Made by a program: the position numbers and the translations under genes. A DNA stretch of 64,000 nt from Deltaproteobacteria bacterium (lineage in GTDB: Bacteria > Myxococcota > Kuafuiibacteriia > Kuafuiibacteriales > Kuafuiibacteriaceae), in NCBI GenBank assembly GCA_011526105.1, contig WYAZ01000034.1, positions 1-64,000 on the forward strand, written 5' to 3'. This document shows positions 28,629-48,463 of this stretch, piece by piece. The notes under the pieces were generated by a model. That model saw only the letters and a program-made list of their open reading frames with translations, was not told the DNA's origin and made no database searches. Each line of letters begins with the position of its first letter. Position 1 is the stretch's first letter.

Positions 28629-28629
28629 T

Positions 28630-29502: not shown

Positions 29503-29584
29503 GGGCGCTCCGGCGCTCGAACACCCTAGCAGATCTCTGCGAGCCGAGCGGAGTCGCTGGAACGCCTGTGAGGCGAACGAACGC

Positions 29585-32884: not shown

Positions 32885-33760
32885 ATGGAGCTGGGCACGC
32901 GAGCCAAACCGGCATGGCGCGGTGCCGGGGTGTACGCGGCGGCTCTCTTGCCTTGCCTCGTCGCCGGCGTCCTTCGTGGGGGCCTGCCCCTCATCGCCCT
33001 CACGACGCTCGTGTCCGTGCTGACCGCGTTCCTCTTTGCGAAGCTGAGCAGCCGGCCTCGAATCCCCGGCGCTGGGCTGGCTGGGTTAATCTTCGCACTC
33101 ACGCTGCCGTCCGATACCCCGCTGCTGCAGGCCGCGGCCTCCATGGTGTTCGGACTCGTTGTCGCTCGCGAGATCTTCGGCAAAGTCGAGCGCAGCTTCG
33201 TCCACCCAGCCGTGCTCGCGCACGTGTTCCTGAGCCTCACCTGGCCGGGCGCACTCGCATCCGCGGCCCGATGGCTCCCACCGGACGGAGTCGTGCTCAC
33301 TCCCACGCTCGAGTCCATGCTGTTCACCTCGGCGGGCGGCGCCCTCGGCAACGCCTCCGCCCTCGCCTGCTTCATCGGCGCGGCAATCCTCCTCGTCTCG
33401 CGTCTCATCTCGTGGCGAGTGCTCGCGTCCATCCCCATCGGCGTGGCGGCCGGCATTGGACTCCTCGGACATCCGAGCGCCGCAGGACCGCTCTTCGTGT
33501 CGTCGCATCTTTTGCTGGGGGGTGCGCTGTTCGCGAGCGTGTTCCTCGCCGCTGACCCAGACAGCTCGCCGCGGGACCGCTCGGCGCAATGGTTCCACGG
33601 CTTCTTGGTGGGATTTCTCATCCTGCTTTTCCGAGTCACCGATCCATCCAGCCCCGACGGAGTCATCCCCGCGATCCTCATCGCGAGTGTGTTTGCGCCC
33701 CTGTTCGATCGAGCCGCGGTCGCCGGCCGGCGCGGCGTCGCCGGGGTGAGCCATGTCTGA
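32885..33760 (+). CDS. nqrB: Na+-translocating NADH:quinone oxidoreductase subunit B-like (NqrB/RnfD family); short form
   Basis: Homology blocks LIFALTLPSDTPLLQAAASMVFGLVVAREIFG, LAADPDSSP, LIASVFAPLFD match NqrB/RnfD. Only about 291 aa from the ATG at 32885 (an upstream in-frame TTG at 32867 is possible). The stop overlaps the nqrC start (ATGTCTGA). Confidence 0.75.
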   Translation: MELGTRAKPAWRGAGVYAAALLPCLVAGVLRGGLPLIALTTLVSVLTAFLFAKLSSRPRIPGAGLAGLIFALTLPSDTPLLQAAASMVFGLVVAREIFGKVERSFVHPAVLAHVFLSLTWPGALASAARWLPPDGVVLTPTLESMLFTSAGGALGNASALACFIGAAILLVSRLISWRVLASIPIGVAAGIGLLGHPSAAGPLFVSSHLLLGGALFASVFLAADPDSSPRDRSAQWFHGFLVGFLILLFRVTDPSSPDGVIPAILIASVFAPLFDRAAVAGRRGVAGVSHV

Positions 33761-34577
33761 GCACGCCACCACCGGCGCTTCAGGACGCGGTCCGCCGTCT
33801 CCGCGCAGCACGACCCTCCGCACGATCACGGTGACGCTCTTCGTGTGTCTCGCGTGTTCAATGCTGGTCTCCATCTCGACCGTGGTTCTGCGGCCCATCC
33901 AACGCGAGAACCAGAGACAGGCGCGCGAAGCTCAGATCGCCGCGATTTTGACCCGCGAGCCTGCGCTCCGCGAGTTGCTGGGCGACGTGAACACCGCCAC
34001 CCTCGAATCGCGCGTCGTCGAGCTCGTATCGGGGACGATCATGGAAGACATGGACGCCGCCGCGCTCGATCCGGTCCGCTCGGCGCGAGAGCCCGAATCG
34101 AGCCGAGAGCTCCCGGCCGAACGCGACCTTGCGCGCATCCAGCGCCAAGCGCGACACGTGGCCGTCACCTTCGTTCGACGCGAGGGGACGCTGCACGCCA
34201 TCGTGGTGCCAATCTACGGGCGCGGCTACGGCTCGATCATCCGAGGCTCGCTCGCGCTCGCGGGTGACGCCAACACGATCATCGGCCTCGCGATCAGCGA
34301 ACACGGTGAGACGCCGGGCATCGGCAGCGAGATCACCGAGCCCGAGTGGACCGGACTCTGGCCGGGCAAGAAGCTTCGAGACGACAAGGGCCAGCTGCGG
34401 ATTCACGTCGCACTCGATGAGACCAGCGCCGCAGCCGACGACGCCGAGTTTCACGTCGATGGCATCAGCGGCGCCACCAAGAGCTGCGACGGCGTAGGCA
34501 ACATGGTTCGGTTCTGGGTTGGCGAGGATGGGTTCGGACCGTTCTTAGGCCGCGTGGGAGGCGGAGAGATCCGATGA
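33753..34577 (+). CDS. nqrC: NADH:quinone oxidoreductase subunit C (FMN-binding)
   Basis: N-terminal TM. The FMN-attachment motif DGISGATKS (SGAT) is present. Confidence 0.8.
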   Translation: MSEHATTGASGRGPPSPRSTTLRTITVTLFVCLACSMLVSISTVVLRPIQRENQRQAREAQIAAILTREPALRELLGDVNTATLESRVVELVSGTIMEDMDAAALDPVRSAREPESSRELPAERDLARIQRQARHVAVTFVRREGTLHAIVVPIYGRGYGSIIRGSLALAGDANTIIGLAISEHGETPGIGSEITEPEWTGLWPGKKLRDDKGQLRIHVALDETSAAADDAEFHVDGISGATKSCDGVGNMVRFWVGEDGFGPFLGRVGGGEIR

Positions 34578-35197
34578 GTCGCTTCATCCAGACCCTCACG
34601 AGGCCCGTCCTCGAAGACAACCCCATCACAGTGCAGCTGCTGGGGCTCTGCTCCGCCCTCGCGGTCACCAAGAGCCTCGAGACCGCTTTCGCCATGAGCG
34701 CGGCGGTCGCCGCGGTGCTGGTGGGCAGCAACGCCGTCATCAGCCTGCTCCGAGGAGTCATCCCGCACCCCACGCGCCTCGTCGTCCAGATCACGATCAT
34801 CGCCTCGATGGTGATCGTCACCGACCAGCTCATCGCGGCCTTTGCCCCCGAGCTCAGCCGCCAGCTCTCCATCTTCGTGAGCCTCATCATCACGAACTGC
34901 ATCATCCTCGGGCGCGCCGAGGCCTTTGCGATGACGCATGGCGTGACCGAGAGCATCGCCGACGCCCTCGGCAATGCGCTCGGCTATCTCCTGCTCCTGA
35001 CTTGTGTCGGGGCCATCCGTGAGCTGCTGGGCCGGGGCGCGCTCTTCGGGCATCAGCTTCTGCCTTTGGCTCGAGAGGGCGGCTGGTTTCAGCCGCTCGA
35101 GATCTTGCACCTGCCCCCGGCCGGCTTCTTCCTCATCGCGCTCTTCATCGGCCTGTCGAGTGTCCTGCGGAATCGCAGCGCAAAGGCGGCGCCATGA
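34574..35197 (+). CDS. nqrD: NADH:quinone oxidoreductase subunit D
   Basis: Strong similarity to NqrD (LEDNPITVQLLGLCSALAVT...IITNCIILGRAEAFAM...). 4-nt overlap with nqrC. Confidence 0.85.
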   Translation: MSRFIQTLTRPVLEDNPITVQLLGLCSALAVTKSLETAFAMSAAVAAVLVGSNAVISLLRGVIPHPTRLVVQITIIASMVIVTDQLIAAFAPELSRQLSIFVSLIITNCIILGRAEAFAMTHGVTESIADALGNALGYLLLLTCVGAIRELLGRGALFGHQLLPLAREGGWFQPLEILHLPPAGFFLIALFIGLSSVLRNRSAKAAP

Positions 35198-35808
35198 TGA
35201 CGCTCTTCCTCGAGGCGGTGTTCGTCGAGAACCTCGCGCTCGCCTTCTTCCTCGGGATCTGCACGCTGCTCGGAGGCTCACGCCGGCTTTCCACCGCAGT
35301 CGGGCTGGGCATCGCGATCACGGTGGTCATGACCATCACGCTCCCGATCAACCACCTCATCCATCGCTTCCTTCTCGCGCCGGGCGCCTGGGCGTGGGCC
35401 GGCATGGCCGAGCTTGACCTCAGTCATCTGTCGCTCATCTGCTTCATCGGATCGATCGCCGCGATGGTGCAGATCCTCGAGATGGTCCTCGATCGCTTCT
35501 TTCCCGCCCTCGCCCGCGGCCTCGGGATCTTCTTGCCGCTCATCACGGTCAACTGCGCCATCCTCGGCGGCTCACTGTTCATGGTCGACCGGCACTACGA
35601 CCTCGGCCAAACGGTCGTGTATGCGGTCGGCAGCGGGGTCGGATGGGCCCTCGCGGTGGCCGCACTCGCCGCGATCCGTGAACGGGTCGACGGTGAGCAT
35701 CTCCCGGAGGGCTCGGCCTCGGATTCTGCCAGCCAGGCCCTCGTGTTTGCGGTGATTGGCATCATGTCGACGGCCTACATGGCCTTCTCCGGGGTGCGTC
35801 TGCCATGA
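35194..35808 (+). CDS. nqrE: NADH:quinone oxidoreductase subunit E
   Basis: FVENLALAFFLGICTLL...LPLITVNCAILGGSLF is NqrE/RnfA-like. 4-nt overlap on each side. Confidence 0.85.
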   Translation: MMTLFLEAVFVENLALAFFLGICTLLGGSRRLSTAVGLGIAITVVMTITLPINHLIHRFLLAPGAWAWAGMAELDLSHLSLICFIGSIAAMVQILEMVLDRFFPALARGLGIFLPLITVNCAILGGSLFMVDRHYDLGQTVVYAVGSGVGWALAVAALAAIRERVDGEHLPEGSASDSASQALVFAVIGIMSTAYMAFSGVRLP

Positions 35809-37028
35809 CCGAGGTCGTCATGACCGTGGTCCTCTTCAACGGGATCATCTTGGTGTTCACCGCGTTGATCCTGATCGCGCGCGCGCTCGTGGTGGGCACC
35901 GGCACCGCCCGGATCACGATCGACGGACGCGAGCCCTTCGAGACCGAGCTCGGACGCAAGCTCCACAACGTGCTCATGGATGCCGGCATCCCCATCGCCG
36001 CCGCCTGCGGCGGAAAGGGCACCTGCGGCTTGTGTCGCGTGCGAGTCAGCGGTGTGCTCGACCCGCCCCTGGCCACCGAGCTGGCGATCCTCGACGAACA
36101 CGCGCTCGCCCGAGGCCTTCGCCTCTCGTGCCAGATCACGACCCGCGGCGATCTCGAGGTCGGACTGCCCGAGGGCCTGCCCACCCACCAGGAGCTCGAG
36201 TGCCGCGTGCGTTCGTCGCGCAACCTGACCCCGCTCATCAAAGAGATCGTGCTCGAGCTCCCCGAGGGCGCCTCCTTCCAGTTTCGCGCCGGGAGCTTCG
36301 TCCAGATCAACTGCCCGCCGCATCAAACCGTCCTTGGACGAGTGCCGGTCGACGAGTCGTGCCGCGCCGCCTGGGATGCGCTGGGGATCGATCACCTCGT
36401 CGCGAACTGCCCGCAGCCCACGAGCCGCGCCTACTCGATGGCGAATCACCCGGGTGAGGGGCACTTCATCATGTTGCTGGTTCGCCTCGCGCTGCCCCCG
36501 CCGGGCGTGCCACCAAACACGCCGCCCGGCCTCGTCTCGAGCTATCTGTTCAGCCTCGAACCAGGCCGAACCGTGCGGCTCAGCGGACCCTTCGGCCACT
36601 TCGTCGCGACCGACACCGACAAGGAGATGATCTTCGTGGGCGGCGGCGTGGGCATGGCCCCCATGCGGGCCCACGTCTTCGAGCAGCTCGAGTTTCTCCA
36701 TAGCCAGCGAAAGATCAGCTTCTGGTACGGAGCCCGCTCGGAACGCGAGCTGATCTACGCGGAAGAGTTCGAGGCCCTCGCGAAGAAACACCCCAACTTC
36801 ACATGGTCCGTCGCGCTGTCGGAGCCCAGCCCCGACGACGAATGGCACGGCGCAGTCGGCTTCATCCACGATCACCTGCACCGCTCCTATCTCGCGGGCC
36901 ATGCGGCACCGTCGGACTGTGAGTACTATCTATGCGGACCGCCTTTGATGGTGCGCGCGGTGGTGGCGATGCTCGAGCGCTTGGGCGTGAGCCGAAGCTC
37001 GGTGTTCTATGATGACTTTGGCGGCTGA
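35805..37028 (+). CDS. nqrF: NADH:quinone oxidoreductase subunit F (2Fe-2S ferredoxin + FAD/NAD(P)-binding reductase)
   Basis: N-terminal TM. Ferredoxin Cys cluster CGGKGTCGLCRV...C, RAYSMAN (FAD) and GGGVGMAPMRAH (NAD) motifs. This subunit is diagnostic of Nqr as opposed to Rnf. Confidence 0.85.
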   Translation: MTEVVMTVVLFNGIILVFTALILIARALVVGTGTARITIDGREPFETELGRKLHNVLMDAGIPIAAACGGKGTCGLCRVRVSGVLDPPLATELAILDEHALARGLRLSCQITTRGDLEVGLPEGLPTHQELECRVRSSRNLTPLIKEIVLELPEGASFQFRAGSFVQINCPPHQTVLGRVPVDESCRAAWDALGIDHLVANCPQPTSRAYSMANHPGEGHFIMLLVRLALPPPGVPPNTPPGLVSSYLFSLEPGRTVRLSGPFGHFVATDTDKEMIFVGGGVGMAPMRAHVFEQLEFLHSQRKISFWYGARSERELIYAEEFEALAKKHPNFTWSVALSEPSPDDEWHGAVGFIHDHLHRSYLAGHAAPSDCEYYLCGPPLMVRAVVAMLERLGVSRSSVFYDDFGG

Positions 37029-37049
37029 GGCCCAAGGAGCAGAAGACTC

Positions 37050-37445
37050 ATGATCCAAACGGCGCGCGTAGAGGAGTTCATGGCGAGAGAGCTCGTGGTG
37101 GTCAGGCCCAACACGGAGATCCACGAAGCGGTCGCACTCATGCTCGATCGGCGCGTCTCCGGACTGCCGGTCGTGGACGAGGGCGGTCACCTCGTCGGCA
37201 TCCTGACCGAGCAAGACTGTTTGAGAGTCGCCTTTCAGAGCCACTATCATCAGGCGCCGGCGGGCACGGTGGCGAACGCCATGACCTCGAATCCCACGAC
37301 CATCGATGCCCAAGACGACATCATGACCGCGATCGACGTCTTCCTTCGGGCCTCGTTTCGGAGACTCCCGGTGCTCGCCGGGGGCACGCTGGTCGGCGTG
37401 CTCAGCCGCCGCGATGCGCTCCGGGTGCTCAGGACGCAGGCTTGA
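37050..37445 (+). CDS. CBS-pair domain protein
   Basis: Two CBS motifs (GLPVVDEGGHLVGILTEQD and RLPVLAGGTLVGVLSRRD). Confidence 0.75.
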   Translation: MIQTARVEEFMARELVVVRPNTEIHEAVALMLDRRVSGLPVVDEGGHLVGILTEQDCLRVAFQSHYHQAPAGTVANAMTSNPTTIDAQDDIMTAIDVFLRASFRRLPVLAGGTLVGVLSRRDALRVLRTQA

Positions 37446-37761
37446 GGGACATGAGCCACTTCGAGAGCGCGTTCAACTCGGCTTCTTCGCCCCGAAACTT
37501 CGGCGGATGCAGCTTGTCCTCGAGCTTCTCTTTCTTCTCGAGATAACGAACGAGCCAATCGAGCTTTCGCTTCGTCGAGAGTCCAGAGAGATCCGAGATC
37601 TTCATCTCGGCGCTGTCCTTCTGGAGCGCCACGATGCCTTCGCTCTTGATGCTGTGGCAGACGTTGCACTTCTTCGCGAGGAAGACCTTCTTCCCGTCTG
37701 GCTCTTCGCCCGCCGCGGCCAACGAGAGGGAGAGGCTGAGAATGTGGCTCAAAAGGGTCAT
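37429..37761 (-). CDS. Small secreted mono-haem c-type cytochrome
   Basis: The ORF is trimmed to the ATG at 37759-37761 (MTLLSHILSLSLSLAAAGEE signal). A single CxxCH motif (CNVCH). Overlaps the 3' end of the CBS gene convergently by 17 nt. Confidence 0.6.
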   Translation of the reverse strand: MTLLSHILSLSLSLAAAGEEPDGKKVFLAKKCNVCHSIKSEGIVALQKDSAEMKISDLSGLSTKRKLDWLVRYLEKKEKLEDKLHPPKFRGEEAELNALSKWLMSLKPAS

Positions 37762-37944
37762 CGCTCGCTCCGATCCGGGCCTCGTTCGGCCCGAGCTGTT
37801 CGTCCTCACCGCGACGCGCGATTGAGACGGTACTTCGTCGAACTATCTTTCGGGGGGATCGTAGGCAAGCCGAACCGAAAAAGGGATACCCGTCAGACCC
37901 CGCGAGATTTGCCGCCGTCCGCACGTTCCGGCATCATTCGCGCG

Positions 37945-38865
37945 GTGGTGCCGTTCGCCGCATCCTGGGTCGTCGCTGCGATCGCCGCATCGAGCCCCGC
38001 GGACACTGGCACCCCGATCATCATCTTGCTGCCCGCCGAGAGCCAGACGGCTTCGGTTGCGGCGGCCTATCTCCAGAACGAGCTCGAGCTCGTGCTTCAG
38101 CTCGAGACCGCGTCTTTGGATGAACCTCGAGCGCTGCTGGCGCGGGCGCGCTCGAAGTGGCCCTCGGCCCTGATCGTGCTTCTGCACCCGGACCGCAACG
38201 AGACCTGGATGTCTCGCCCGCATGAGGCGGAGCCGGTGGTGCGCCGCCTCAATCATCCGCCCGGGAGCTCCGCGTATCCCCTCGCGATCGCGGCCGCGGA
38301 GCTCGTTCGAAACGCCACCGCGCCCAAACCCTTGCCGCCCAAACCCGAGCTGGAGCTCGCGTTCTCGGTGGGGCTCGGCATCTCGGGGTCTCCGGGCGTC
38401 GAGCGAACCTTGGCGCAGCCGGTCTTCGGTCTGGAGTTGCGCCTCGGAACGCACGGGCTTTGGAGCTCGGTCGGGCTCCGGGTCCGCGGGCCTTCTTCCT
38501 CGAACACCGACGTCGGCGGCAACATCTTCGTGGACTACAGCCGCACCGACCTCGCGCTGCAGCTCGGCTTCGGTCCAGAGCTCGACCGCTGGCACCTCGC
38601 CCTGCTCGTCGAGGCCGGACTGAGCGTGGTCTCGGTCGATGCGCAGCGGGGGGCCGAACTTCTCGGCTCGAACCGCCGTCTGCCCTTCTGGCTCGGCTTG
38701 GGCGCGCAGATACGCCGGCCGCTCTTCTCAGGCTTGGGTGCGGTGGTGTGTGTGGAGCTGATCCGCGTGCTCAGCCCAGCGGACTTTCGCGGCGGGCCGG
38801 ACATCGTCTTTTCGGAGGGGGATTGGCGACTTCAGTCGCAAGCGGCCCTGGAGTGGGTGCTGTGA
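37945..38865 (+). CDS. Hypothetical secreted protein (beta-rich)
   Basis: The long ORF 37414..38865 is antisense to the cytochrome gene at its 5' end. In-frame GTGs at 37945 and 37948 give VVPFAASWVVAAIAASSPADTG (signal-like). The start is uncertain. Confidence 0.4.
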   Translation: MVPFAASWVVAAIAASSPADTGTPIIILLPAESQTASVAAAYLQNELELVLQLETASLDEPRALLARARSKWPSALIVLLHPDRNETWMSRPHEAEPVVRRLNHPPGSSAYPLAIAAAELVRNATAPKPLPPKPELELAFSVGLGISGSPGVERTLAQPVFGLELRLGTHGLWSSVGLRVRGPSSSNTDVGGNIFVDYSRTDLALQLGFGPELDRWHLALLVEAGLSVVSVDAQRGAELLGSNRRLPFWLGLGAQIRRPLFSGLGAVVCVELIRVLSPADFRGGPDIVFSEGDWRLQSQAALEWVL

Positions 38866-38941
38866 ACGCCATCGGTCTTTCTCACTTTCTGGGGATGCGG
38901 CGACTGACTGCAGGTGGGATCCTTCCCCTTCGAGATCCGGC

Positions 38942-39547
38942 GTGACGGCAGAAGTGATGTCCCAGGACGCACCGACTCCCGCCAGGCCTTCGCTGGTCGC
39001 ACGGGCCAAGGCCGGCGATCCCGCGGCTCTAGCCGAGCTGGTGCGGACGGAAAGCCCCAAAGTGGCGGGTCTGCTCGTGCGGCTTCTCGGTCCCCGGCAG
39101 GATCTCGAGGACCTGGTTCAGATCGTGTTCCTCGAGCTCTGCCGAGCGCTGCCCGGCTTTCGCGGCGACAGCAGCATCTCGACCTTCATCGGGGGAATCG
39201 CGGTTCAGGTCGCGCGACGCGCGATGCGCCCGACCGCCTGGCAACGACGCCGCGCCGAGTGGCCCAAGACGGAACCCGCCTCTTTGGAGTCCGACCCCGA
39301 GGACCAGGTGAGTCTCCGCGATCAGATTCGGCGGCTCCACGAACTGCTCGAAGAAGTACCGCCCAAGAAACGAGTCGCCTTCCTTCTTTGGGCGGTGGAT
39401 GGCCGCACCGCCGACGAGGTCGCGACCCTCACGAAGTGCAGCCTCCCCACCGCTCGCAAGCGCATCTACGACGTGCGGCGACAGCTCCGCGACCGGGCCC
39501 AGGGCGACCCGTTGCTCGCGCACTGGGTCGGTGAGGAGGTCCCATGA
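38942..39547 (+). CDS. RNA polymerase sigma-70 factor, ECF subfamily
   Basis: Region 2 (DLVQIVFLEL...) and region 4 (ADEVATLTKCSLPTARKRIYDVRRQLR). 4-nt overlap with the downstream anti-sigma gene. Confidence 0.85.
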   Translation: MTAEVMSQDAPTPARPSLVARAKAGDPAALAELVRTESPKVAGLLVRLLGPRQDLEDLVQIVFLELCRALPGFRGDSSISTFIGGIAVQVARRAMRPTAWQRRRAEWPKTEPASLESDPEDQVSLRDQIRRLHELLEEVPPKKRVAFLLWAVDGRTADEVATLTKCSLPTARKRIYDVRRQLRDRAQGDPLLAHWVGEEVP

Positions 39548-40761
39548 TCGACCCCAAAGAACAGCGGCGCGACCGCGAGTTCGCCGCCTTCGGCAACGAC
39601 GCGCTCAGCTCGTCCGCGATCGATCGGCTCGCGGAACGCATCGCCGCCGACGGCCCTCGGGTCGTCCGCCGCGCAAAGTTCGTGCGCACCGCGGTGCGTG
39701 TCGGCCCGGTGGTCGCGCTCCTCCTCTTTGCGTTGATCTGGGGAACACGCCCTGGTCCGCCGCCGGCGGCTCCGGCTTTGGCCGACAGCACCCGAGCGTG
39801 CGAGCGCTGGTCTCCGATATCGACCTCGGCGATCTCGTCCGGCCGCATCGACCTTGGGCACCTCGGCGAAGGACGAAGCTCCGAAGAAGCCAGGATCGAC
39901 CTTCGGGTGGCAGAACGCTGCCGCACCGTCCTCCACCTCGCGCAGGGCTCGGTGGCCATTCACGCGAAGGACCTCGGCGGCGGAACGCTCATCGTCGAGA
40001 CGCCGCAGGGCCGAGCTCGAGTCGTGGGAACGATCTTCTCGGTCTCGCAGCGCGGTGAGGTCTTTGCGGTCGAAGTCGTCGAGGGCACGGTCGAAGTCGA
40101 AGCTCACGAAGAGCAAATCTTGCTGCGGGCCGGAGAACGCACCGCCCTCGCCGAAGGCCGACTGAAGACGCGAGCCATGACAGAGACCGAGCGCGAGGCG
40201 CTTCTGATCGGAGTTCGAGACGGCCTAGCTCAGGCCGACGAATCGGAAGCTCTGTTCGATGGGGCGGAGCTCGACGCGCCCTCGGAGTCTCCCGAAACCG
40301 CGCGCCCCCGGGTGAGGCCCAACCGCCGCAACGCCGAACGGAAGACGAAAGTCGACGACCACGCACCCGCGGTGTCCCCCCCCCCGACCTCCGAGAGCGC
40401 GGAGCAGCTCGTCGCGCGGGCCGCCCAGCTCAAGACGAAGGCGCCTGATGCGGCACGGGCCCTGTACCTTCGGGCGGGCTCGATGTCCGGACCGACGGCA
40501 GAGGCGGCCTGGATCGCGCTCGCGCGGCTCGAGCTCTCTCGTGCACGTCCCGCATCCGCGGTCGACGCGCTCAATGATCGCCAGCGACGTTTCCCTTCGG
40601 GCGGCATGGTCCTCGAGGCCGCTGGCATCGAGCTCGAGGCTCTGCACGCCCTCGGCAAGTCGGAGGCGGTGCGGCGCCTCGCTCGCGAGATCGTCGATCG
40701 CTGGCCCGAATCTCAGCAGGCCAAGAAAGCCGAGAGCCTGCTCGACCGGAAGCCTCGATGA
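39544..40761 (+). CDS. Anti-sigma factor, FecR-domain, single-pass membrane protein
   Basis: TM VGPVVALLLFALIWG. FecR-like beta region (GGGTLIVETPQGRARVVGTIFSVSQ). C-terminal TPR-like helical region. Confidence 0.7.
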   Translation: MIDPKEQRRDREFAAFGNDALSSSAIDRLAERIAADGPRVVRRAKFVRTAVRVGPVVALLLFALIWGTRPGPPPAAPALADSTRACERWSPISTSAISSGRIDLGHLGEGRSSEEARIDLRVAERCRTVLHLAQGSVAIHAKDLGGGTLIVETPQGRARVVGTIFSVSQRGEVFAVEVVEGTVEVEAHEEQILLRAGERTALAEGRLKTRAMTETEREALLIGVRDGLAQADESEALFDGAELDAPSESPETARPRVRPNRRNAERKTKVDDHAPAVSPPPTSESAEQLVARAAQLKTKAPDAARALYLRAGSMSGPTAEAAWIALARLELSRARPASAVDALNDRQRRFPSGGMVLEAAGIELEALHALGKSEAVRRLAREIVDRWPESQQAKKAESLLDRKPR

Positions 40762-42719
40762 TCTCAGCCCGACTTTGGGGCCGAGCGTGCCTCGGCCTGC
40801 TGTTGCTCGTCGCGTGTGACCGACGCGAGATCCTGTTGTTCGACGCGAGCGGTCCCCCCGAGCTGGCCGGGATTCGACGCGTCGAAGTCCGGCCCTCGAT
40901 GGCCACCGTCGTCGCCGACGGCCGGACACGGCCCGCCGATCTCGCGTTTCAGGCGATCGGCATCTTCGAGGACGGAGAGCGCGACATCACCTCGCTCACG
41001 ACGTGGAGGCTCTCCCGCCCCGAGCTGGGCACGGTCGGCGTCGGCGTGTTCCGCGCACACGGCACGATCGGTGGGGACACCATGATCGGCGCGCGAGTGG
41101 GAGACCTCGATGCAGAGGCGTCGATCCAGGTGCAGCTCTCGGTGACGGACCTCGATCCTTCGGCGCCCGGTGACGCGATGGCCTTCTTCCCCGAGAACAT
41201 CTCGGGTGATGCCCTGCGCAGCAGCCCCACCATCATCTATCCGAGCGACAGCACCACGTTCCCCAAAAACGTCTCGAACACGCTCTTTCAGTGGCACGAC
41301 TCGGCCGGCTCGGATCTGTTTGAGGTTCGCTTCGACAGCGCGGTGGCGAGCATCCGGCACTATACCAAGGACCGAAGTTTCGCTCTCGATGACCTGGCCC
41401 GAGGGTGGCTCCCCCATACACACTCAGGTCGATCGCTCACCATGACGGTTCGAAGCGTCTCCACGACCTCCACCGGCACCGTCTATCGCTCGGACGCCAT
41501 TGAGCTTCACTATTCCGCTTCAGACGTGAGCGGCGCGATCTACTACTGGTCGACGGGTGCTCGCGGCATCATGCGCGCCTCACTCGATCGCGAGGCCGCG
41601 GTGGCCTTCTACCCTGGACCCGAGAGCGACCGCTGCGCGTCGTGCCACACCGTCTCTCGCGACGGACGGCGCCTCGCGGCGGCGTATGACGGCGAGAAGC
41701 TCCGCGTCGTTTCGATCCCCGAGAATCAACTCATCGAGCCTCCCTCCGGGGCCTCCGAGGCGGAGTTCGGCTGGGGCAGCTTCGACCCGAGCGGCGAGCG
41801 GCTCATCATCGCGCACAAGGGCCGCCTGAGCATGCTCACCGTGGGGTCCGGGGCACGCGCCGACGTCCCGCTCCCTTCGGGCTTTTATGGGACCCATCCC
41901 GACTGGTCGCCCGATGGTCGGCAGATCGCGCTCGCGGTGGCGGACAAGTCGACGAACAACAAAGACACTAAAGGGACGAGCCTCGCGCGCTTGCTCGTGC
42001 AGCCCGATGGGTCCATCTCCGGCCTCGAGGTGCTCGAGCCCAGCCTGGCCGATGACGACACCCTCGTCTTTCCGAGCCACTCGCCGGACGGTCGCTGGAT
42101 CGCGTTTGTTCGCGCGCGCGGCAAGTCCAAGGACAACCGTGAGGCCGAGATCTATCTCATCCGCTCGGACGGAACTGGACCCACCATCTTGCTCGAGGCG
42201 CTCAACCGAAGGGTGGGGCCTGAAAGCGGGGTGCGTTCGATCAGCAACTCGATGCCCACGTGGGGCCCGACCCTCGGCACCGGGATGGACTGGCTCGCGT
42301 TCTCGTCCACACGCGACTACGGCGCCGTGATCGTCGATACGAAGCGCGATCAGCTCTGGAGTGCGGTCATCGATCTCTCCAAAGCTGCGAGCGGCGTCGA
42401 CCCCAGCGGCCCCGCCTACTGGCTGCCATTTCAACAGACTGAGGAAGGTAATCATCGCGCGTTCTGGACATCGAACCCTAACGACGAATGCCCCTCGACC
42501 ATCGAGCTCTGCAACGGAGTCGACGACGACTGCGACGGTGTGGTCGACGAGGACTGCTGTACGTCCGTGGAGGAGATCTGCGGCGATGGCATCGACAATG
42601 ACTGCGACCTCGCCCGCGACGAAGGCTGTGGCTGCACCGACACCGAAGACTGCACCAACCGCCTCGACGACGACTGCGACGGACTCATCGACCTGGAAGA
42701 CGAGGACTGTGGGGTATGA
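40758..42719 (+). CDS. Lipoprotein with a TolB-like beta-propeller region and C-terminal MopE-like Cys-rich (putative metal-binding) repeats
   Basis: Lipobox LLLVAC. Repeats SPDGRQIA / SPDGRWIAF typical of TolB/WD40-like propellers. C-terminal CNGVDDDCDGVVDEDC, CGDGIDNDCDLARDEGC and CTNRLDDDCDGLIDLEDEDC. 4-nt overlaps place it in the sigma/anti-sigma operon. Confidence 0.7.
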   Translation: MISARLWGRACLGLLLLVACDRREILLFDASGPPELAGIRRVEVRPSMATVVADGRTRPADLAFQAIGIFEDGERDITSLTTWRLSRPELGTVGVGVFRAHGTIGGDTMIGARVGDLDAEASIQVQLSVTDLDPSAPGDAMAFFPENISGDALRSSPTIIYPSDSTTFPKNVSNTLFQWHDSAGSDLFEVRFDSAVASIRHYTKDRSFALDDLARGWLPHTHSGRSLTMTVRSVSTTSTGTVYRSDAIELHYSASDVSGAIYYWSTGARGIMRASLDREAAVAFYPGPESDRCASCHTVSRDGRRLAAAYDGEKLRVVSIPENQLIEPPSGASEAEFGWGSFDPSGERLIIAHKGRLSMLTVGSGARADVPLPSGFYGTHPDWSPDGRQIALAVADKSTNNKDTKGTSLARLLVQPDGSISGLEVLEPSLADDDTLVFPSHSPDGRWIAFVRARGKSKDNREAEIYLIRSDGTGPTILLEALNRRVGPESGVRSISNSMPTWGPTLGTGMDWLAFSSTRDYGAVIVDTKRDQLWSAVIDLSKAASGVDPSGPAYWLPFQQTEEGNHRAFWTSNPNDECPSTIELCNGVDDDCDGVVDEDCCTSVEEICGDGIDNDCDLARDEGCGCTDTEDCTNRLDDDCDGLIDLEDEDCGV

Positions 42720-42775
42720 CGCCCTGGTCTTCTCATTTTTCGTCGGTCCGGCGACTCACTGCCATGGAGTTCAAA

Positions 42776-43519
42776 ATGACCAAAAATCTGTCTCATCTCC
42801 TGCTCGTGCTCCCCATCACCGCGCTCGGCATCACCGCCTGCGGCGGAGGTGGGAGTTCTGAATACGACCCCATCGCCACCGGGCTCTCCGGCCTGATGGC
42901 CGACCCAGACGCGGGCGAGACCCAAACCTTCAAAGACCTGGTCCTCGCGTGGCGTGGCCAGACCCCGGTCGACCTCAGCCTCGACGGCGACGACATCTAC
43001 GTGGGGCGCCGCGGGGAGCTCGACTTCCGATTTGAGCTCGACTGCCTCGACACCAGCGCCAAGATCGTGCGCTGCGACGCGAAGTCGGACGCCGACGCCA
43101 AGATCAGCTGGAAGGGGAAGATCGAGAACACGCGCCACAAGCTCGAGATCGACCGCAACGCCAGGATCAAGGTGACCTCCTTGGATGAGAACCGCCTCCG
43201 CATCCAAGGCGACCTCGACTACTCCATCCAGTCGGACTTCAAGGACAAGGACGAGGACTACCGCCACAAGTACGACTTCGATGCGGACGCGAAATACGAC
43301 GTGGTGGTCATGCGCTCCGATGGCGCGATCGAGTCGGGCAAGCTCGAGGCCGATATCCAGGCCAAGGAAAAGCTCGAAGAGGACGACACCAAGATCAAGT
43401 CCGAGCTCAAGACGAAGATGGTCGTGACCTTCCTGGATGGAGAGACCTCGGAGGTCGACTTCGACAGCAAGTCGAAGTACAAGCTGCACCTCGTGAACGG
43501 GGCGCTGGAGCTCGAGTAG
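42776..43519 (+). CDS. Hypothetical lipoprotein (Asp/Lys-rich)
   Basis: MTKNLSHLLLVLPITALGITACGGGG lipobox. An alternative ATG lies at 42764. Confidence 0.55.
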   Translation: MTKNLSHLLLVLPITALGITACGGGGSSEYDPIATGLSGLMADPDAGETQTFKDLVLAWRGQTPVDLSLDGDDIYVGRRGELDFRFELDCLDTSAKIVRCDAKSDADAKISWKGKIENTRHKLEIDRNARIKVTSLDENRLRIQGDLDYSIQSDFKDKDEDYRHKYDFDADAKYDVVVMRSDGAIESGKLEADIQAKEKLEEDDTKIKSELKTKMVVTFLDGETSEVDFDSKSKYKLHLVNGALELE

Positions 43520-43553
43520 TCGAGTTCGCTTCCCACCCCGGGGCGACCCCCGT

Positions 43554-44023
43554 ATGAAGTCGATCCTCTACGATGACGCGCTGACGGCGGTGCTGCCGCA
43601 AGATCGAAGGGCGCGCGAAAGCGTAGCTCATGCCAGTTGAGGCGCCCTGATCTCTCATCGAGTACCCCTCCTCGCTCTCCGATTCGCACGTTCCGCGCAC
43701 GCGGAAGCACAGCCTCCACGACATGCTCGACATCACCATCTGTGAGAGGCTCTGTGGTGTAGAAGGAGAGCTTGTCGCCCTCGATGCAAAGACGCTCCGA
43801 CACTTCTTCGACCCCGCCTCCGGACGCGCCGCGATTCACATGGTGAGTGCGTGAGCGACCGAGAACCGCGTGGTGCTCGGGCAGGTCAGAACAGCCGACA
43901 GGTCGAATGAGATCACCGCGATTCCTCGGCTTCTCGAGCTACTGAAACTACGGTGCGGCGCCGTGACCATCGACGCGATGGGACGAGGCGTACCCGCTCC
44001 GCCTGCTCGGCATTCACGTTTGA
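43554..44023 (+). pseudogene. ISAs1-family (YhhI / H-repeat-associated, DDE_Tnp_1) transposase remnant. It is N-terminally truncated, carries frameshifts and stops, and has an internal deletion
   Basis: Translated fragments: SILYDDALTAVL, ELVALDAKTLRHFFDPASGRAAIHMVSA, (stop) [41 protein letters not shown]. These correspond to YhhI blocks DVIAIDGKTLRHSYD..RGAIHVISA and [37 protein letters not shown]. It then jumps to the family C-terminal tail RWDEAYPLRLLGIHV*. Confidence 0.7.
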
Positions 44024-44101
44024 TGCGATCGCCCTGGCGATTGCCCGGCCCCGAATCCTGTGCCATACGACACAGATAGATGACCTCAGACGGATAAACA
44101 G

Positions 44102-45157
44102 ATGTCCTCGAACATACTTGCAATACGGTTCTCGGCTCTTGGCGATGTTGCTATGACATTGCCAGTGCTGTATTCGGCTGCAAGAGCACACCCCAACCAC
44201 ATGTTCTATGTGCTCACTTCAAAGTCCTTTGCAGACCTATTTACAAACCAGCTACCCAACATGGAACCGATCGGAGTCGACCTGGAGGAGTATCGAGGAG
44301 TAAGTGGGTTGATGCGACTCGCCAGAAAGACCCGCACGAGCTACGCGATAGATGCAGTTGCTGACTTGCACGATGTCATGCGAAGTCAGGTGCTGCGCAC
44401 CTACTTCATGATAGGTGGCAAACGTGTTGCATACATCCGAAAAGAGAGATCCACGAAGAAAGCAATCATCAAACGCAAAGCCCCGTTGGCTCCCGTCAAG
44501 CACTCAATAGATAGGTACAGGGATGTGTTTTCGCAACTCGGACTAGAGGCCGAAATGAGCTTCACGTCCTATTTCGAGAGCCAGCCTCGCCCTCTGGAGC
44601 AGCTGAAAAGCCTGTCCTTCAACACGGGAAAGACGAACCTAGGTATTGCCCCCTTTGCTACGTACGCAGAGAAGGTGTACCCGATTGATAGAATGGAAGA
44701 GGCGGTGAAGGCCATCTCCGAAAGAGACAACACCCATATCTATCTATTTGGAGGGGGAAGCAAAGAGAAAGATAAACTGGAGGAGTGGGAGGCTAAGTAT
44801 TCGAATGTAACATCGGTGGTAGGCAAACTGTCGTTGAAGCATGAATTGCTTCTAATTTCTTTTCTGTCTGTTCTCGTCTCCATGGACTCGGCCAATATGC
44901 ATCTGGCATCGTTGGTCAACACACCCGTACTTTCCATTTGGGGCGCTACGCATCCATATCTAGGCTTCTATGGTTTCAAACAGTCCCCTCGTGATGCCGT
45001 GCAGTTGTCCGACCTCGATTGTCGCCCGTGTTCTGTGTTCGGCAATGTGCCCTGTTGGCGTGGCGACCATGCCTGCATGAACGGCATACCGGCACAAGCA
45101 GTTATCGACAGAATCGAAATGATGCTTCAGGAATACGACAGACCATCCTCGCGATGA
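44102..45157 (+). CDS. Glycosyltransferase family 9 (ADP-heptose:LPS heptosyltransferase-like), in a low-GC island
   Basis: N-terminal ILAIRFSALGDVAMTLPVL and C-terminal VSMDSANMHLASLVNTPVLSIWGATHP are GT9 signatures. About 48-50% GC with an A/T-rich third codon position, against about 70% in the flanks. No Shine-Dalgarno (aaacagATG). Confidence 0.85.
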   Translation: MSSNILAIRFSALGDVAMTLPVLYSAARAHPNHMFYVLTSKSFADLFTNQLPNMEPIGVDLEEYRGVSGLMRLARKTRTSYAIDAVADLHDVMRSQVLRTYFMIGGKRVAYIRKERSTKKAIIKRKAPLAPVKHSIDRYRDVFSQLGLEAEMSFTSYFESQPRPLEQLKSLSFNTGKTNLGIAPFATYAEKVYPIDRMEEAVKAISERDNTHIYLFGGGSKEKDKLEEWEAKYSNVTSVVGKLSLKHELLLISFLSVLVSMDSANMHLASLVNTPVLSIWGATHPYLGFYGFKQSPRDAVQLSDLDCRPCSVFGNVPCWRGDHACMNGIPAQAVIDRIEMMLQEYDRPSSR

Positions 45158-45276
45158 AGAGATCTCGAGGCGAACTCGATCGCGCCCCTCATCTCTGTAG
45201 ACGTCCCGTGAAGCCTTTGTGACGCCAAGATCGAATCTCTCGAGCGTAGCGACCGGTTCCTTCTCCCCCCCGCGAT

Positions 45277-45521
45277 GACGACCGTGCGGTTGACTCTGCT
45301 CGGCACCGCCAAAGAGAGCTTCGGGCTCGATCGACAGCTGAGGGGCAGTACCGACAAGCGACGATTCAAGGTCACGGGGCGAAAAGCCCCTGGACGCTAC
45401 GCCGCATCGCCCTCAACCTCTTGAAGCAGGACACGGGCGAGAAGGTCGGGGTCAAGAGCAAGCGCTCGCCGCGCGATGGGACAAGGGCTACATGCTCCAC
45501 TTGCTCGGCATCCACGTTTGA
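45277..45521 (+). pseudogene. Second ISAs1-family transposase remnant (C-terminal roughly 85 codons only, frameshifted)
   Basis: Fragments TVRLTLLGTAKESFG..LDRQLRGSTDKRRFKVTGRKAP...LRRIALNLLKQDTGEKVGVKSKRSP...ARWDKGYMLHLLGIHV*. These match the YhhI C-terminus TVRYYISSADLTAEKF...[22 protein letters not shown]...[33 protein letters not shown]. Confidence 0.6.
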
Positions 45522-45665
45522 TGCGATTGCCCTGGTTCCGGCCTCGGGGCATTCACGGGGTTCGGGGCCCCGACCCCGGGGCCCGCCACGCAGGTTTCCC
45601 TTGCGTGTCCCCCTCGAGCCGAGTCATCTGCGAACCGAGCCACCCGCCGCGGCTCGAGAAGCTCC

Positions 45666-47608: not shown

Positions 47609-48463
47609 TCAACCGCCTCGGGCGGTCGGCCAAACTTCCAGCGCCGGTGAGTAGGCAGAGAGCCTGACCCGCATGACCTCGATGGCCTCGACGTTCTCGT
47701 CGATGAGCACGAAGCCCCGTCCGTGTTTCGCCGCGGCCTCCCCGGTGGTGCCACTGCCAGCAAAGAAGTCCAGCACGGTGTCGCCGGGCACGGAGTGCAC
47801 ACACACGATGCGCTCGAGGACGGAGAGCGGCTTCTGCGTGGGGTAGCCGGTGCGTTCTTTGGAGGTGGTGGGCACGATCGTGTTCCACCAGACGTCCGTG
47901 GGTGTTTTGCCACGCGCGGCCTTCTCGGCCCCCACCAGACTCGGCGCCATGTACGGGATGCGATCAATCGCGTCATACTCGAAGACGTAGTTCTCCGGAT
48001 CCTTCGCGTACCAGAAGATCACGTCGTGTTTGGAAGGCCAGCGCCTCTTCGGACGGCCACCATAGTCATAGGACCAGACGATCTCGTTCATGAAGGAGAC
48101 CCGACCAAAGATCTCGTCGAGCAAAATCTTGACGTAGTGCGACTCCCGCGGATCCACGTGCAGGAACAGGGAGCCGTCTTCGGGAAGCAGACGCCGAGCC
48201 TCGAGGAGGCGTGGTTCGAGGAAGCTCGCGTAGTCGTCGAAGTGATCTCGATAGGCCCGCTTCTCGCCTTCCTCACTCCGATACCGACGACCCCCGAAGC
48301 CAAGCCGGTCACCCGCCTCATCCTGAACGACCTTGAGACGAGCGCTCTCTTGGGTTCGGCCGGTGTTAAAAGGCGGATCGATGTAGATGAGGCGAAAGCG
48401 CTGGCCCGGGAGGTCTCGTAGAACCTCGAGGTTCTCGCCATGGATGATGCGCCGGTCCAGCAC
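47609..48463 (-). CDS. Beta-class DNA N6-adenine (or possibly N4-cytosine) methyltransferase, apparently without a cognate restriction endonuclease
   Basis: Motif IV IDPPFN precedes motif I FFAGSGTTG (beta-class order). Overall architecture like CcrM/M.HinfI-type enzymes. The stop is 8 nt from the ABC-F stop, convergent. Confidence 0.8.
   Translation of the reverse strand: MLDRRIIHGENLEVLRDLPGQRFRLIYIDPPFNTGRTQESARLKVVQDEAGDRLGFGGRRYRSEEGEKRAYRDHFDDYASFLEPRLLEARRLLPEDGSLFLHVDPRESHYVKILLDEIFGRVSFMNEIVWSYDYGGRPKRRWPSKHDVIFWYAKDPENYVFEYDAIDRIPYMAPSLVGAEKAARGKTPTDVWWNTIVPTTSKERTGYPTQKPLSVLERIVCVHSVPGDTVLDFFAGSGTTGEAAAKHGRGFVLIDENVEAIEVMRVRLSAYSPALEVWPTARGG

What the first reader, a model, noticed from the sequence alone, without database searches (positions are those of the whole stretch)
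43554..45545. The low-GC gene is bracketed by two same-orientation ISAs1-family transposase remnants (IS-mediated capture)
Upstream (43554-44023) and downstream (45277-45521) of the GT9 gene, on the same strand, lie degraded pieces of an ISAs1/YhhI-type DDE transposase. The diagnostic block [27 protein letters not shown] and the C-terminal tail ...RWD(K/E)xYxLxLLGIHV* are both recognisable. Neither remnant is functional, so the cargo gene is now fixed. The arrangement looks like a composite-transposon-like or IS-internal insertion that delivered the foreign gene
Basis: partly seen in the sequence, partly recalled or inferred. Interest (0 to 1): 0.65.

Follow-up and report, generated by a model that had tools for sequence, protein, structure and literature searches.

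The report
Bacteroidales sugar-transferase gene between ISAs1 remnants
A myxobacterium-like genome carries a 2-kb insert, absent from a sister species, in which a cell-envelope glycosyltransferase gene taken from Bacteroidales sits between two dead ISAs1 insertion sequences; this is a well-resolved but ordinary case of transposon-associated gene transfer.

Summary
Window 43538-44037 is a decayed ISAs1 element that keeps both ends (NCBIfam ISAs1 89 bits). About 45353-45535 is the last ~180 bp of a second, different ISAs1 element on the same strand.

Between them lies an intact GT9 gene (44102-45157). It is the only low-GC stretch in 64 kb, and its nearest relatives are Bacteroidales (80% aa).

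Three new points:
- The right end of the left IS directly abuts the last ~14 codons of DUF4254, the gene that precedes GT9 in Bacteroidales. So an ISAs1 transposed into Bacteroidales-type DNA next to GT9.
- A sister species (~80% nt identity) has an empty site. The insert is 43538-45535 to within a few bases, bounded by the outer IS termini.
- The same structure occurs in many sequencing runs and in strains 99.3-99.8% identical. GT9 is GC-ameliorated and conserved while the IS parts decay.

Best reading (0.5): a composite-like ISAs1-bounded unit transposed here as a whole, then lost its transposases by deletion.

Target-site duplication is equivocal (6/8). About 195 bp (45158-45352) remain unassigned.

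This is a known kind of event. Interest is modest.

The parts
43530..43537 (.). Left copy of a possible target-site duplication (TTCCCACC), 11-18 nt after the stop codon of the upstream lipoprotein gene (42716-43519).
   Evidence: It matches 45536-45543 (TTCCGGCC) at 6 of 8 positions (6 of 10 if the duplication is 10 bp). My binomial estimate of chance is about 0.01-0.03. A related ISAs1 copy has a perfect 10-bp duplication. The sister-species site is too diverged to decide.
43538..44037 (+). IS-A: a decayed ISAs1-family element that keeps both ends. Its pieces are:
- left inverted repeat remnant, 43538-43548, followed by a 9-nt deletion
- transposase N-terminal piece, 43645-43764
- a ~190-bp deletion at 43757/43768
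- catalytic-domain piece, 43762-43983, with an in-frame TGA at 43852
- a ~555-bp internal deletion across the direct repeat CGCGATGGGAC at 43974-43984
- C-terminal tail RWDEAYPLRLLGIHV*, 43976-44023
- right inverted repeat TTTGATGCGATCGCCCTGG, 44019-44037
   Evidence: NF033564 89.3 bits. Custom HMM E 2.4e-34 and 2.5e-7. Colinear alignment to the intact 1252-bp IS on L107. The left repeat matches 9/11; such matches occur 60 times in 128 kb, so about 1% chance at this position.
44038..44083 (+). 3' remnant (~14 codons, ...DCPAPNPVPYDTDR*) of a DUF4254-type gene, the conserved upstream neighbour of this GT9 gene in Bacteroidales. It starts within 2-3 nt of the IS-A terminus.
   Evidence: The nucleotide match to the Bacteroidales contig L089 starts at window 44054, inside the L089 DUF4254 ORF (3150-3758), and continues into GT9 (78.7% over 1068 nt). 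The DUF4254-GT9 pair is conserved in three Bacteroidales contexts.
44102..45157 (+). Intact glycosyltransferase family 9 gene (351 aa). It has a foreign, Bacteroidales-like origin and is partly GC-ameliorated. Its last 3-4 codons lie beyond the homologs' stop codon.
   Evidence: - Pfam PF01075, E 3e-25.
- Best homologs 80% aa; all but one of the named hits are Bacteroidales.
- GC 0.506 and GC3 0.58, against 0.78-0.88 in neighbours.
- The only GC<0.57 stretch in 64 kb.
- 147/157 invariant residues kept.
- 59 AT-to-GC against 9 GC-to-AT changes on its branch.
- C-terminal alignment.
45158..45352 (.). Unassigned spacer 'X' (195 bp, about 0.6 GC) between GT9 and the second IS remnant.
   Evidence: No ISAs1 signal at protein or DNA level. 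No match in any fetched locus, in the window or in plasmids. It carries an SNP and a 3-nt indel in a variant strain.
45353..45535 (+). IS-B: the 3' terminal ~170-180 bp of a second, different ISAs1 element. It holds frameshifted coding for ...GHGAKSPWTLRRIALNLLKQDTGEKVGVKSKR / LAARWDKGYMLHLLGIHV* (45367-45521) and the right inverted repeat TTTGATGCGATTGCCCTGG (45517-45535).
   Evidence: - tblastn to the L107 transposase, E 1.4e-16.
- 87-90% nt identity to the L107 IS.
- Plasmid ISAs1 hits, E 1e-5.
- HMM positions 328-361, E 2.6e-7.
- A 64-nt direct repeat with 43974-44037 at 86%.
- One Logan contig ends at 45534 and another starts at 45505, so this terminus is probably multi-copy in those samples.
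45536..45543 (.). Right copy of the possible target-site duplication (TTCCGGCC).
   Evidence: See the first part.
45540..45607 (+). Native stem-loops downstream of the insert (terminator-like, no T-run). The equivalent hairpin follows the lipoprotein gene directly in the sister species.
   Evidence: RNA fold -42.5 kcal/mol, z -2.4. Aligned to the L112 intergenic region.

Best explanation
The 2.0-kb segment 43538-45535 is one inserted unit. Its order is: an ISAs1 element (IS-A), a 1.1-kb piece of Bacteroidales-type DNA (the last ~14 codons of DUF4254 plus a whole GT9 gene), about 195 bp of unknown origin, and the right end of a second ISAs1 element (IS-B).

**Proposed history.**
1. A Bacteroidales DUF4254-GT9 segment entered a high-GC organism or replicon that carried ISAs1 elements (inferred).
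2. IS-A transposed into DUF4254 about 60 bp upstream of GT9. This is shown by the terminus-to-gene junction.
3. A second ISAs1 right end (IS-B) came to lie downstream of GT9.
4. A transposase acting on the left inverted repeat of IS-A and the right inverted repeat of IS-B moved the whole unit. This would be either a composite transposon or an IS using a surrogate distal end. It landed in the intergenic spacer between a lipoprotein gene and an ABC-F gene of this Myxococcota-like lineage, between the stop codon and the terminator-like hairpin. The boundaries are shown; the transposition step is inferred.
5. Deletions then destroyed both transposase genes. One deletion in IS-A lies across a 9-11-nt direct repeat. 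These deletions immobilised the unit.

GT9 stayed intact under purifying selection while its base composition drifted toward the host's. It is probably transcribed by read-through from the upstream ECF-sigma/FecR/PD40/lipoprotein operon (inferred).
For: **IS identity and ends.** An intact 1252-bp relative with 19-nt inverted repeats CCAGGGCGATCGCATCTAA / TTTGATGCGATTGCCCTGG lies on L107. The same repeat core and a perfect 10-bp duplication occur in a Thiodictyon plasmid copy.

**Donor-side junction.** The IS-A right terminus (44037) abuts the DUF4254 tail. Nucleotide homology to Bacteroidales runs 44054-45119, and the DUF4254-GT9 synteny holds in Bacteroidales.

**Empty site.** In sister species L112 the lipoprotein ortholog is followed 70 nt later by the ABC-F upstream region. 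The window flanks add up to 20 + 50 = 70 nt, so little or no native DNA was lost and the breakpoints fall at the outer IS termini.

**Two IS lineages.** IS-A is 69-79% identical to the L107 IS over most of its length (95% over one 22-nt stretch) and 77% in its tail outside the repeat. IS-B is 85-90% identical. Family-wide, the region kept by IS-A is the more conserved one.

**Foreign origin and long residence of GT9.**

**Fixation and constraint.** The structure is identical in many runs and in three contigs from variant strains. Against the variant contig L114, GT9 has 0.9 SNP per kb (one synonymous change) and IS-A has 8 per kb. A second pair of variant contigs (L001/L002) adds two synonymous changes and one conservative change, V192M.

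**Possible duplication.** The flanks match 6/8 (sequences).
Against: - No second copy of the unit and no intact IS-A or IS-B copy was seen, so mobility as a unit is inferred only from its boundaries.
- The flanking repeat is imperfect (6/8 or 6/10), and the diverged empty site cannot confirm it.
- IS-B lacks its first ~1060 bp. No left inverted repeat of IS-B abuts the cargo, so a classical two-IS composite needs an extra deletion. Alternatively the unit moved with only a surrogate right end.
- 45158-45352 is unexplained.
- The two flanking IS are 14% different in their shared 64 nt, which is unusual for a freshly made composite transposon.
- No sigma-70-like promoter was found by a simple scan, and expression is untested.
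Confidence: 0.5

Rival explanations
1. In-situ insertion into a resident IS. A single ISAs1 copy already sat in this spacer. A linear fragment, made of the tail of another ISAs1 plus the DUF4254 tail plus GT9, was then inserted into it by microhomology-mediated or homology-facilitated illegitimate recombination at the TIDAMG codons. This split the resident IS into the present left and right parts.
For: - The left part stops at IS position ~634. The sequence at the GT9 stop (45141-45156, GACCATCCTCGCGATG) matches IS positions 617-632 at 14/16. A targeted test gives p 0.03 with strict gap costs and 0.002-0.004 with permissive ones.
- The left junction lies in an 11-nt microhomology, CGCGATGGGAC.
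- The outer termini match the empty-site boundaries.
- Only the IS-B tail causes contig breaks in the Logan assemblies.
- Homology-facilitated illegitimate recombination is an established route for foreign DNA (PMC3240628).
Against: - The 14/16 match is not significant when the whole IS is searched: 259 of 500 shuffles reach the same score. Another IS tile scores as high.
- Part of the match (CCAT) is native GT9 3' sequence.
- The left part and its own tail are both about 74-77% identical to the L107 IS, while the right part is 85-90% identical, although it covers a region that is less conserved family-wide. The left and right parts therefore look like different elements.
- If 45158-45352 were interior sequence of an element 88% identical to the L107 IS, it should be detectable. 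It is not.
Confidence: 0.15
2. Foreign DNA first, IS later. A larger Bacteroidales-derived island integrated here by some other route. Two ISAs1 elements then landed in it independently, and IS-adjacent and other deletions trimmed everything except GT9.
For: - IS elements commonly accumulate in foreign islands, and deletional decay is evident here.
- IS-A clearly inserted into DUF4254.
- The region lies at the edge of a 17-kb block that is variable between sister species.
Against: - Both breakpoints coincide with IS termini, and the native flanks add up to the same 70 nt as the empty site. Two independent deletions would each have had to stop exactly at the old island borders.
- No other low-GC DNA is left in 64 kb.
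- The 6/8 flank match is unexplained under this model.
Confidence: 0.15
3. Artefact: a chimeric assembly or a contaminating Bacteroidales read set joined to a myxobacterial contig at repeated IS sequence.
For: - There is a sharp compositional break.
- Several Logan contigs end near IS sequence.
Against: - Both junctions are crossed by independent contigs from many sequencing runs. One is a 23-kb contig at 99.3% identity that spans everything.
- The gene is only 79% identical at the nucleotide level to any Bacteroidales sequence found, and it is GC-ameliorated.
Confidence: 0.01

Closest known systems
ISAs1 family insertion sequences (ISAs1, ISEc1/H-repeat, E. coli YhhI/YbfD/YdcC-type transposases)
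   Same: - The transposase sequence passes the NF033564 cutoff.
- The termini are of the CAGGG...CCCTG type, within 16-19-nt inverted repeats identical in core to a Thiodictyon ISAs1 copy.
- The close relative on L107 is 1252 bp with a single ORF.
   Different: Both copies here are dead. One has two internal deletions, a stop codon and a 9-nt loss in the left repeat. The other is reduced to its last ~180 bp. The target duplication cannot be shown.
Composite (compound) transposons such as Tn10/Tn5, and IS-plus-surrogate-end transposition units such as ISEcp1-blaCTX-M (from general knowledge)
   Same: - Cargo lies between IS sequences in direct orientation.
- The inner IS end abuts a truncated donor gene.
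- The outer IS ends define the insertion relative to an empty site.
- There may be a flanking direct repeat.
   Different: - The flanking IS belong to two diverged lineages (86% in the shared tail).
- The right-hand IS has no left end.
- There is a single copy, so there is no evidence of repeated mobility.
- The cargo is an envelope glycosyltransferase, not a resistance gene.
- I know of no passenger-carrying ISAs1 derivatives, but I did not check the literature systematically.
H-repeat (ISAs1-family) remnants at recombination junctions of polysaccharide gene clusters, e.g. the Salmonella group D2 O-antigen cluster (PMC3715488)
   Same: An ISAs1-family remnant sits at the junction where surface-polysaccharide or LPS glycosyltransferase genes of different origin were joined. 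The element is proposed to have mediated the event and was then left as a remnant.
   Different: - Here a single gene crossed between phyla rather than within a species.
- It was inserted in an unrelated operon spacer rather than in an O-antigen cluster.
- There are two remnants rather than one.
Bacteroidales DUF4254-GT9 gene pair (LPS-core-type glycosyltransferase family 9, Pfam PF01075)
   Same: 80% aa identity over the full length, 147/157 invariant residues kept, and the upstream DUF4254 tail still attached.
   Different: - It stands alone without DUF4254.
- Its GC is 51%, against 37-43% in the three homolog genes compared.
- The last 3-4 codons are new.
- It scores below the cutoffs of the RfaC/RfaF/RfaQ heptosyltransferase equivalogs, so its substrate is unknown.

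Membership tests
ISAs1 family insertion sequence | DDE transposase matching the family profile (NCBIfam NF033564; Pfam PF01609 + PF13808) | tested here: met
   - Left remnant: 89.3 bits against a cutoff of 70.
- Right remnant: too short for the NCBIfam model (no hit), but E 1.4e-16 to an intact relative, and E 1e-5 to annotated ISAs1 transposases.
ISAs1 family insertion sequence | Terminal inverted repeats of ~15-20 bp ending CAGGG...CCCTG | tested here: met
   - Right repeats at 44019-44037 and 45517-45535 match the repeats of the L107 IS at 18-19 of 19 positions.
- Their CAGGGC(A/G)ATCGCATCA core matches that of the Thiodictyon copy.
- The left repeat is partly kept at 43538-43548 (9/11).
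ISAs1 family insertion sequence | Short target-site duplication (10 bp, perfect, in the Thiodictyon copy; 8-10 bp from my memory of ISfinder) | tested here: inconclusive
   The outer flanks TTCCCACC / TTCCGGCC match at 6/8, or 6/10 for a 10-bp repeat. IS-A alone has no flank match (2/8).
ISAs1 family insertion sequence | Intact ~1.2-1.3-kb element with one transposase ORF | tested here: not met
   Both copies are remnants. An intact relative exists only elsewhere (L107).
Composite transposon / IS-bounded transposition unit | IS sequences with usable termini at both outer ends of the cargo | tested here: met
   The left repeat of IS-A lies at 43538 and the right repeat of IS-B ends at 45535. 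Both are on the same strand.
Composite transposon / IS-bounded transposition unit | Insertion breakpoints relative to an empty site coincide with the outer IS termini | tested here: met
   Sister species L112 lacks 43538-45535. Its 70-nt spacer equals the window's 20 + 50 nt of flanks. Precision is limited by ~50% identity in the spacer.
Composite transposon / IS-bounded transposition unit | Two complete IS copies, or evidence that the unit has moved more than once | tested here: not met
   The right IS lacks ~1060 bp, including its left end. Every contig found carrying this GT9 (cluster >=90% identity) that extends beyond the gene matches this same locus.
Glycosyltransferase family 9 (LPS heptosyltransferase-like) | Pfam PF01075 domain over the full length | tested here: met
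   E 3e-25, 89 bits against a cutoff of 22. Alignment to homologs covers 93-100% of the query for full-length homologs.
Glycosyltransferase family 9 (LPS heptosyltransferase-like) | Membership of a characterised heptosyltransferase equivalog (RfaC, RfaF, RfaQ, HepIII) | tested here: not met
   All hits are far below the curated cutoffs, for example TIGR02193 at 70.9 against 185.3.
Horizontally acquired gene of Bacteroidales origin | Nearest relatives, composition and residual donor synteny all point to the donor clade | tested here: met
   - All but one of the named top hits are Bacteroidales.
- GC3 is 0.58, against a host range of 0.78-0.88.
- The DUF4254 tail is retained.
- The gene is absent from the sister species at this locus.

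The most novel reading that the evidence does not exclude
The unit is, or was, a passenger-carrying ISAs1 derivative. On this reading it is a transposition unit in which an ISAs1 transposase used its own left end and a surrogate right end, supplied by a truncated relative, to carry a downstream gene. That is an ISEcp1-like or mobile-insertion-cassette-like way of capturing genes, which I am not aware has been described for the ISAs1 family. It would have moved an LPS-type glycosyltransferase between phyla.
Probability: 0.2. Interest if true: 0.5.

Novelty: new member of a known kind. Interest (0 to 1): 0.33.

Why it matters
This is a clean, base-resolved natural example of how one housekeeping envelope gene from Bacteroidales became a permanent gene of a Myxococcota-like bacterium. 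Several traces survive together:
- the donor-side scar (the truncated DUF4254);
- the vehicle (ISAs1 ends);
- the empty site in a sister species;
- the later decay of the vehicle while the cargo is kept and its composition drifts toward the host's.

It adds to the long-noted association of ISAs1/H-repeat remnants with surface-polysaccharide genes. It also suggests that the host's LPS or lipooligosaccharide core may carry a Bacteroidales-type modification. It does not reveal a new mechanism.

Tried and rejected
1. **Single IS split by the cargo.** This looked attractive because of the 14/16 match at 45141-45156 to the TIDAMG site. It is not significant in a whole-IS search. It is also contradicted by the different divergence of the left and right remnants from the L107 IS.
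2. **ISAs1 signal in 45158-45366.** I tried tblastn with the L107 transposase, a 13-sequence HMM run with --max, and local DNA alignment against shuffles. Nothing was found. BLAST and tblastx of this spacer against all loci, the window and plasmids also found nothing.
3. **Other ISAs1 copies.** There are none in the window and none in the 112 fetched loci apart from L107.
4. **GTDB genome scan with the ABC-F protein.** The best relative is 59% identical and shows no synteny, so it gave no empty site. The protein database search found the useful sister species instead.
5. **Exact target-site duplication.** It could not be established. The L107 IS flanks are themselves imperfect (6/8, sequences).
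6. **Promoter and terminator consensus scan.** It found no promoter and no terminator beyond chance.
7. **Pfam and NCBIfam on the right remnant alone.** No hit, because it is too short and frameshifted.
8. **Literature search for ISAs1 family end and duplication parameters.** It returned nothing usable.
Full report
**What is in the sequence**

The window is about 65% GC. The region 43.5-45.6 kb holds the only stretch below 57% GC in all 64 kb. That stretch is an intact 351-aa ORF at 44102-45157 with a family 9 glycosyltransferase domain (PF01075, E 3e-25). Its overall GC is 0.506. Its third-position GC is 0.58, against 0.78-0.88 for the four neighbouring genes.

Upstream on the same strand, three reading frames together spell the pieces of an ISAs1 transposase, including [27 protein letters not shown] and RWDEAYPLRLLGIHV*. 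Downstream lie ...LRRIALNLLKQDTGEKVGVKSKR and LAARWDKGYMLHLLGIHV*. A 64-nt direct repeat at 86% identity links 43974-44037 and 45472-45535.

**Are the flanks really ISAs1?**

Yes.
- The stitched upstream translation passes the curated cutoff of NCBIfam NF033564, 'ISAs1 family transposase' (89.3 bits against 70, E 2.6e-25).
- A search of 5.8 billion proteins found 1338 relatives. The top hits carry PF01609+PF13808, and the named ones are called ISAs1 or YbfD/YdcC transposases.
- The downstream piece is too short for those models. By tblastn it hits the C-termini of annotated ISAs1 transposases on plasmids (E 1e-5 to 5e-4).

A scan of metagenome contigs for the shared terminal 20-mer recovered an intact close relative on L107 (JAANMX010015836.1). 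That element is 1252 bp long. Its 19-nt inverted repeats are CCAGGGCGATCGCATCTAA and TTTGATGCGATTGCCCTGG, and it has one 388-aa ORF ending ...LRRIALNLLKQDTSKKVGIKNKRLAAGWDEGYMLHLLGIHV*.

Its transposase matches window 43762-43983 at E 5e-31 and 45367-45518 at E 1.4e-16. An HMM of 13 full-length relatives places the window pieces colinearly at positions 7-46, 106-179 and 328-361, with a weak fourth piece at 359-376. A plasmid copy in Candidatus Thiodictyon has the same repeat core, CAGGGCAATCGCATCA, and a perfect 10-bp target duplication.

**Anatomy of the two remnants**

The upstream element (IS-A, 43538-44037) keeps both ends.
- Its left repeat survives as 9 of 11 nt, followed by a 9-nt deletion.
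- It then has the N-terminal coding region, a ~190-bp deletion, and the catalytic-domain piece with an in-frame TGA at 43852.
- A jump of ~555 bp across the direct repeat CGCGATGGGAC leads into the last 15 codons, the stop codon and a complete right repeat ending at 44037.

The downstream element (IS-B) is demonstrable only from about 45353-45367 to 45535. That is the last 170-180 bp, including the right repeat. 45158-45352 ('X', about 0.6 GC) gives no signal with any method.

The two remnants are different ISAs1 lineages.
- IS-A is 69-79% identical to the L107 IS over most of its length (95% over one 22-nt stretch). In its tail outside the repeat it is 77% identical.
- IS-B is 85-90% identical.
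- Family-wide, the region that IS-A retains is the better conserved one.

**Origin of the cargo**

After the identical protein from this same species, the best GT9 homologs are 80% identical and lower. All but one of the named sequences among the top 120 are Bacteroidales: Dysgonomonas, Prevotella, Parabacteroides, Anaerorudis and Viscerimonas. The exception is a MAG labelled Saccharimonadaceae. No Myxococcota sequence appears.

In three Bacteroidales contigs (37-41% GC) the gene sits in a conserved ETF / acyl-CoA dehydrogenase / DUF4254 / GT9 row. Nucleotide homology between the window and the closest of them (78.7%) runs from 44054 to 45119. It starts 48 nt before the GT9 start codon, inside the end of DUF4254. 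At codon level the DUF4254 tail (DCPAPNPVPYDTDR* against DPALNPVLYAKK*) can be followed to within 2-3 nt of the IS-A terminus.

An ISAs1 element therefore transposed into DUF4254, about 14 codons before its stop and about 60 bp upstream of GT9. At the other end the homologs stop at ...EY(V/T)WP*, while the window reads ...EYDRPSSR*, so the foreign DNA ends at about 45143-45146.

Polarised substitutions show 59 AT-to-GC against 9 GC-to-AT changes on the window's branch, compared with 14 against 10 on the sister Bacteroidales branch. The gene has therefore spent a long time in high-GC surroundings.

It still keeps 147 of 157 residues that are invariant in 14 homologs. The ten changes are mostly conservative. 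On its branch 59 codon changes are synonymous and 39 non-synonymous. This indicates continued, if somewhat relaxed, purifying selection.

**Is it real and fixed?**

The source organism is a Myxococcota-like bacterium. The best ABC-F relatives are MAGs labelled Deltaproteobacteria, Myxococcota or Polyangiales. The exact proteins occur on a 135.8-kb NCBI contig.

Logan contigs from many sequencing runs overlap the structure at 100% identity. Three contigs from variant strains (99.3-99.8%) carry it too, and one of them is a 23-kb contig crossing everything.

Against the variant contig L114, GT9 has one synonymous SNP (0.9 per kb). IS-A has 8 per kb, and X has an SNP plus a 3-nt indel. A second pair of variant contigs (L001/L002) has two synonymous changes plus V192M, where M is the ancestral residue.

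One Logan contig ends at 45534, the last IS base, and another starts 30 nt earlier. That is what a repeated k-mer would produce. The IS-B-type terminus is therefore probably multi-copy in those communities. The IS-A tail causes no such break.

**The empty site**

An ABC-F protein 87% identical led to a sister-species contig, L112, about 80% identical at the nucleotide level. There the lipoprotein ortholog is followed after 70 nt by the ABC-F upstream region, with no IS and no GT9.

The window's native flanks (43518-43537 plus 45536-45585) also add up to 70 nt, and they align in order with that spacer. The insert is therefore 43538-45535, bounded by the IS-A left end and the IS-B right end, with little or no loss of native DNA. 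It sits between the lipoprotein stop codon and a terminator-like hairpin.

The eight bases on either side, TTCCCACC and TTCCGGCC, match at 6 of 8 positions. Chance is about 1-3%. This is compatible with a decayed target duplication but does not prove one.

**Mechanism**

The donor-side junction shows a true transposition of IS-A into Bacteroidales-type DNA. The recipient-side boundaries show that IS termini delimit the insert.

The simplest history is that an IS-A / cargo / IS-B-end unit transposed here as a whole. It would have been either a composite transposon or an IS using a surrogate distal end. It then lost its transposases by deletion. I give this 0.5.

Three rivals remain.
- **A resident IS split by microhomology-mediated insertion (0.15).** The 14/16 match behind it is weak, and the two remnants belong to different lineages.
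- **An island that arrived first and was later invaded and trimmed by IS (0.15).** Two deletions would each have had to stop exactly at the old borders.
- **An artefact (0.01).**

Because the unit lies upstream of the operon's hairpin and no promoter consensus was found, read-through transcription from the ECF-sigma/FecR/PD40/lipoprotein operon is the likeliest source of expression. This is an inference.

**Comparison with what is known**

The remnants belong to the ISAs1 family by sequence and termini. The whole resembles composite transposons and ISEcp1-type capture units. It also recalls the H-repeat (ISAs1) remnants found at junctions of O-antigen gene clusters (PMC3715488).

The GT9 protein falls below the cutoffs of all characterised heptosyltransferase equivalogs, so its substrate is unknown.

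Nothing here requires a new kind of element. It is a new and well-documented member of a known kind. Interest is modest (0.33).

Noticed in passing
window 28603-45664: A ~17-kb block is absent from a second sister species (L109-L111, ~79% nt identity). It holds the Na+-NQR/Rnf-type operon, beta-helix proteins, ECF sigma/FecR, a PD40 protein, the lipoprotein gene and the IS-GT9 unit. In that species the His_Phos_1 gene (window ~28601) is followed 15 nt later by the ABC-F gene (window 45665). Either the block was deleted there or it is an island here. The IS-GT9 unit sits at its right edge.
   Followed up: partly
window 45158-45352: A 195-bp spacer (about 0.6 GC) between GT9 and the second IS remnant has no detectable relative anywhere. 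It is polymorphic in a variant strain (one SNP plus a CCC insertion).
   Followed up: yes
window 45505-45534; loci L083 and L085: One Logan contig ends at the last IS base (45534) and another, seen in 9 samples, starts 30 nt earlier. This implies that the IS-B-type terminus is repeated in those metagenomes, so intact copies probably exist in the same genome.
   Followed up: partly
window 44102 vs 44201/44261: Gene callers annotate the GT9 gene from internal starts: 318 aa in Logan contigs and 298 aa in the NCBI record. Alignment to 14 homologs supports the full 351-aa ORF starting at 44102.
   Followed up: partly
window 44675 (GT9 codon 192): The window has Val at a position where all 14 Bacteroidales homologs and one variant strain (L001/L002) have Met. 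The window allele is therefore derived.
   Followed up: yes
window 45537-45557: The native sequence just right of the insert (TCCGGCCTCGGGGCATTCACG) resembles the IS tail (TCCGCCTGCTCGGCATTCACG, 76%). A diverged counterpart is present in the empty site of the sister species, so it is native. This could be chance or a target preference.
   Followed up: partly
L107 42-1517 (- strand) and 1740-2991: The intact 1252-bp ISAs1 relative lies ~220 bp from a 491-aa ORF on the other strand that I took to be another transposase (not checked against any library). That short metagenome contig may therefore be an IS cluster.
   Followed up: no
window 47609-48463 (- strand): An N6/N4 DNA methyltransferase gene lies directly downstream of the ABC-F gene and converges on it. 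It is conserved in the same position in both sister species.
   Followed up: no
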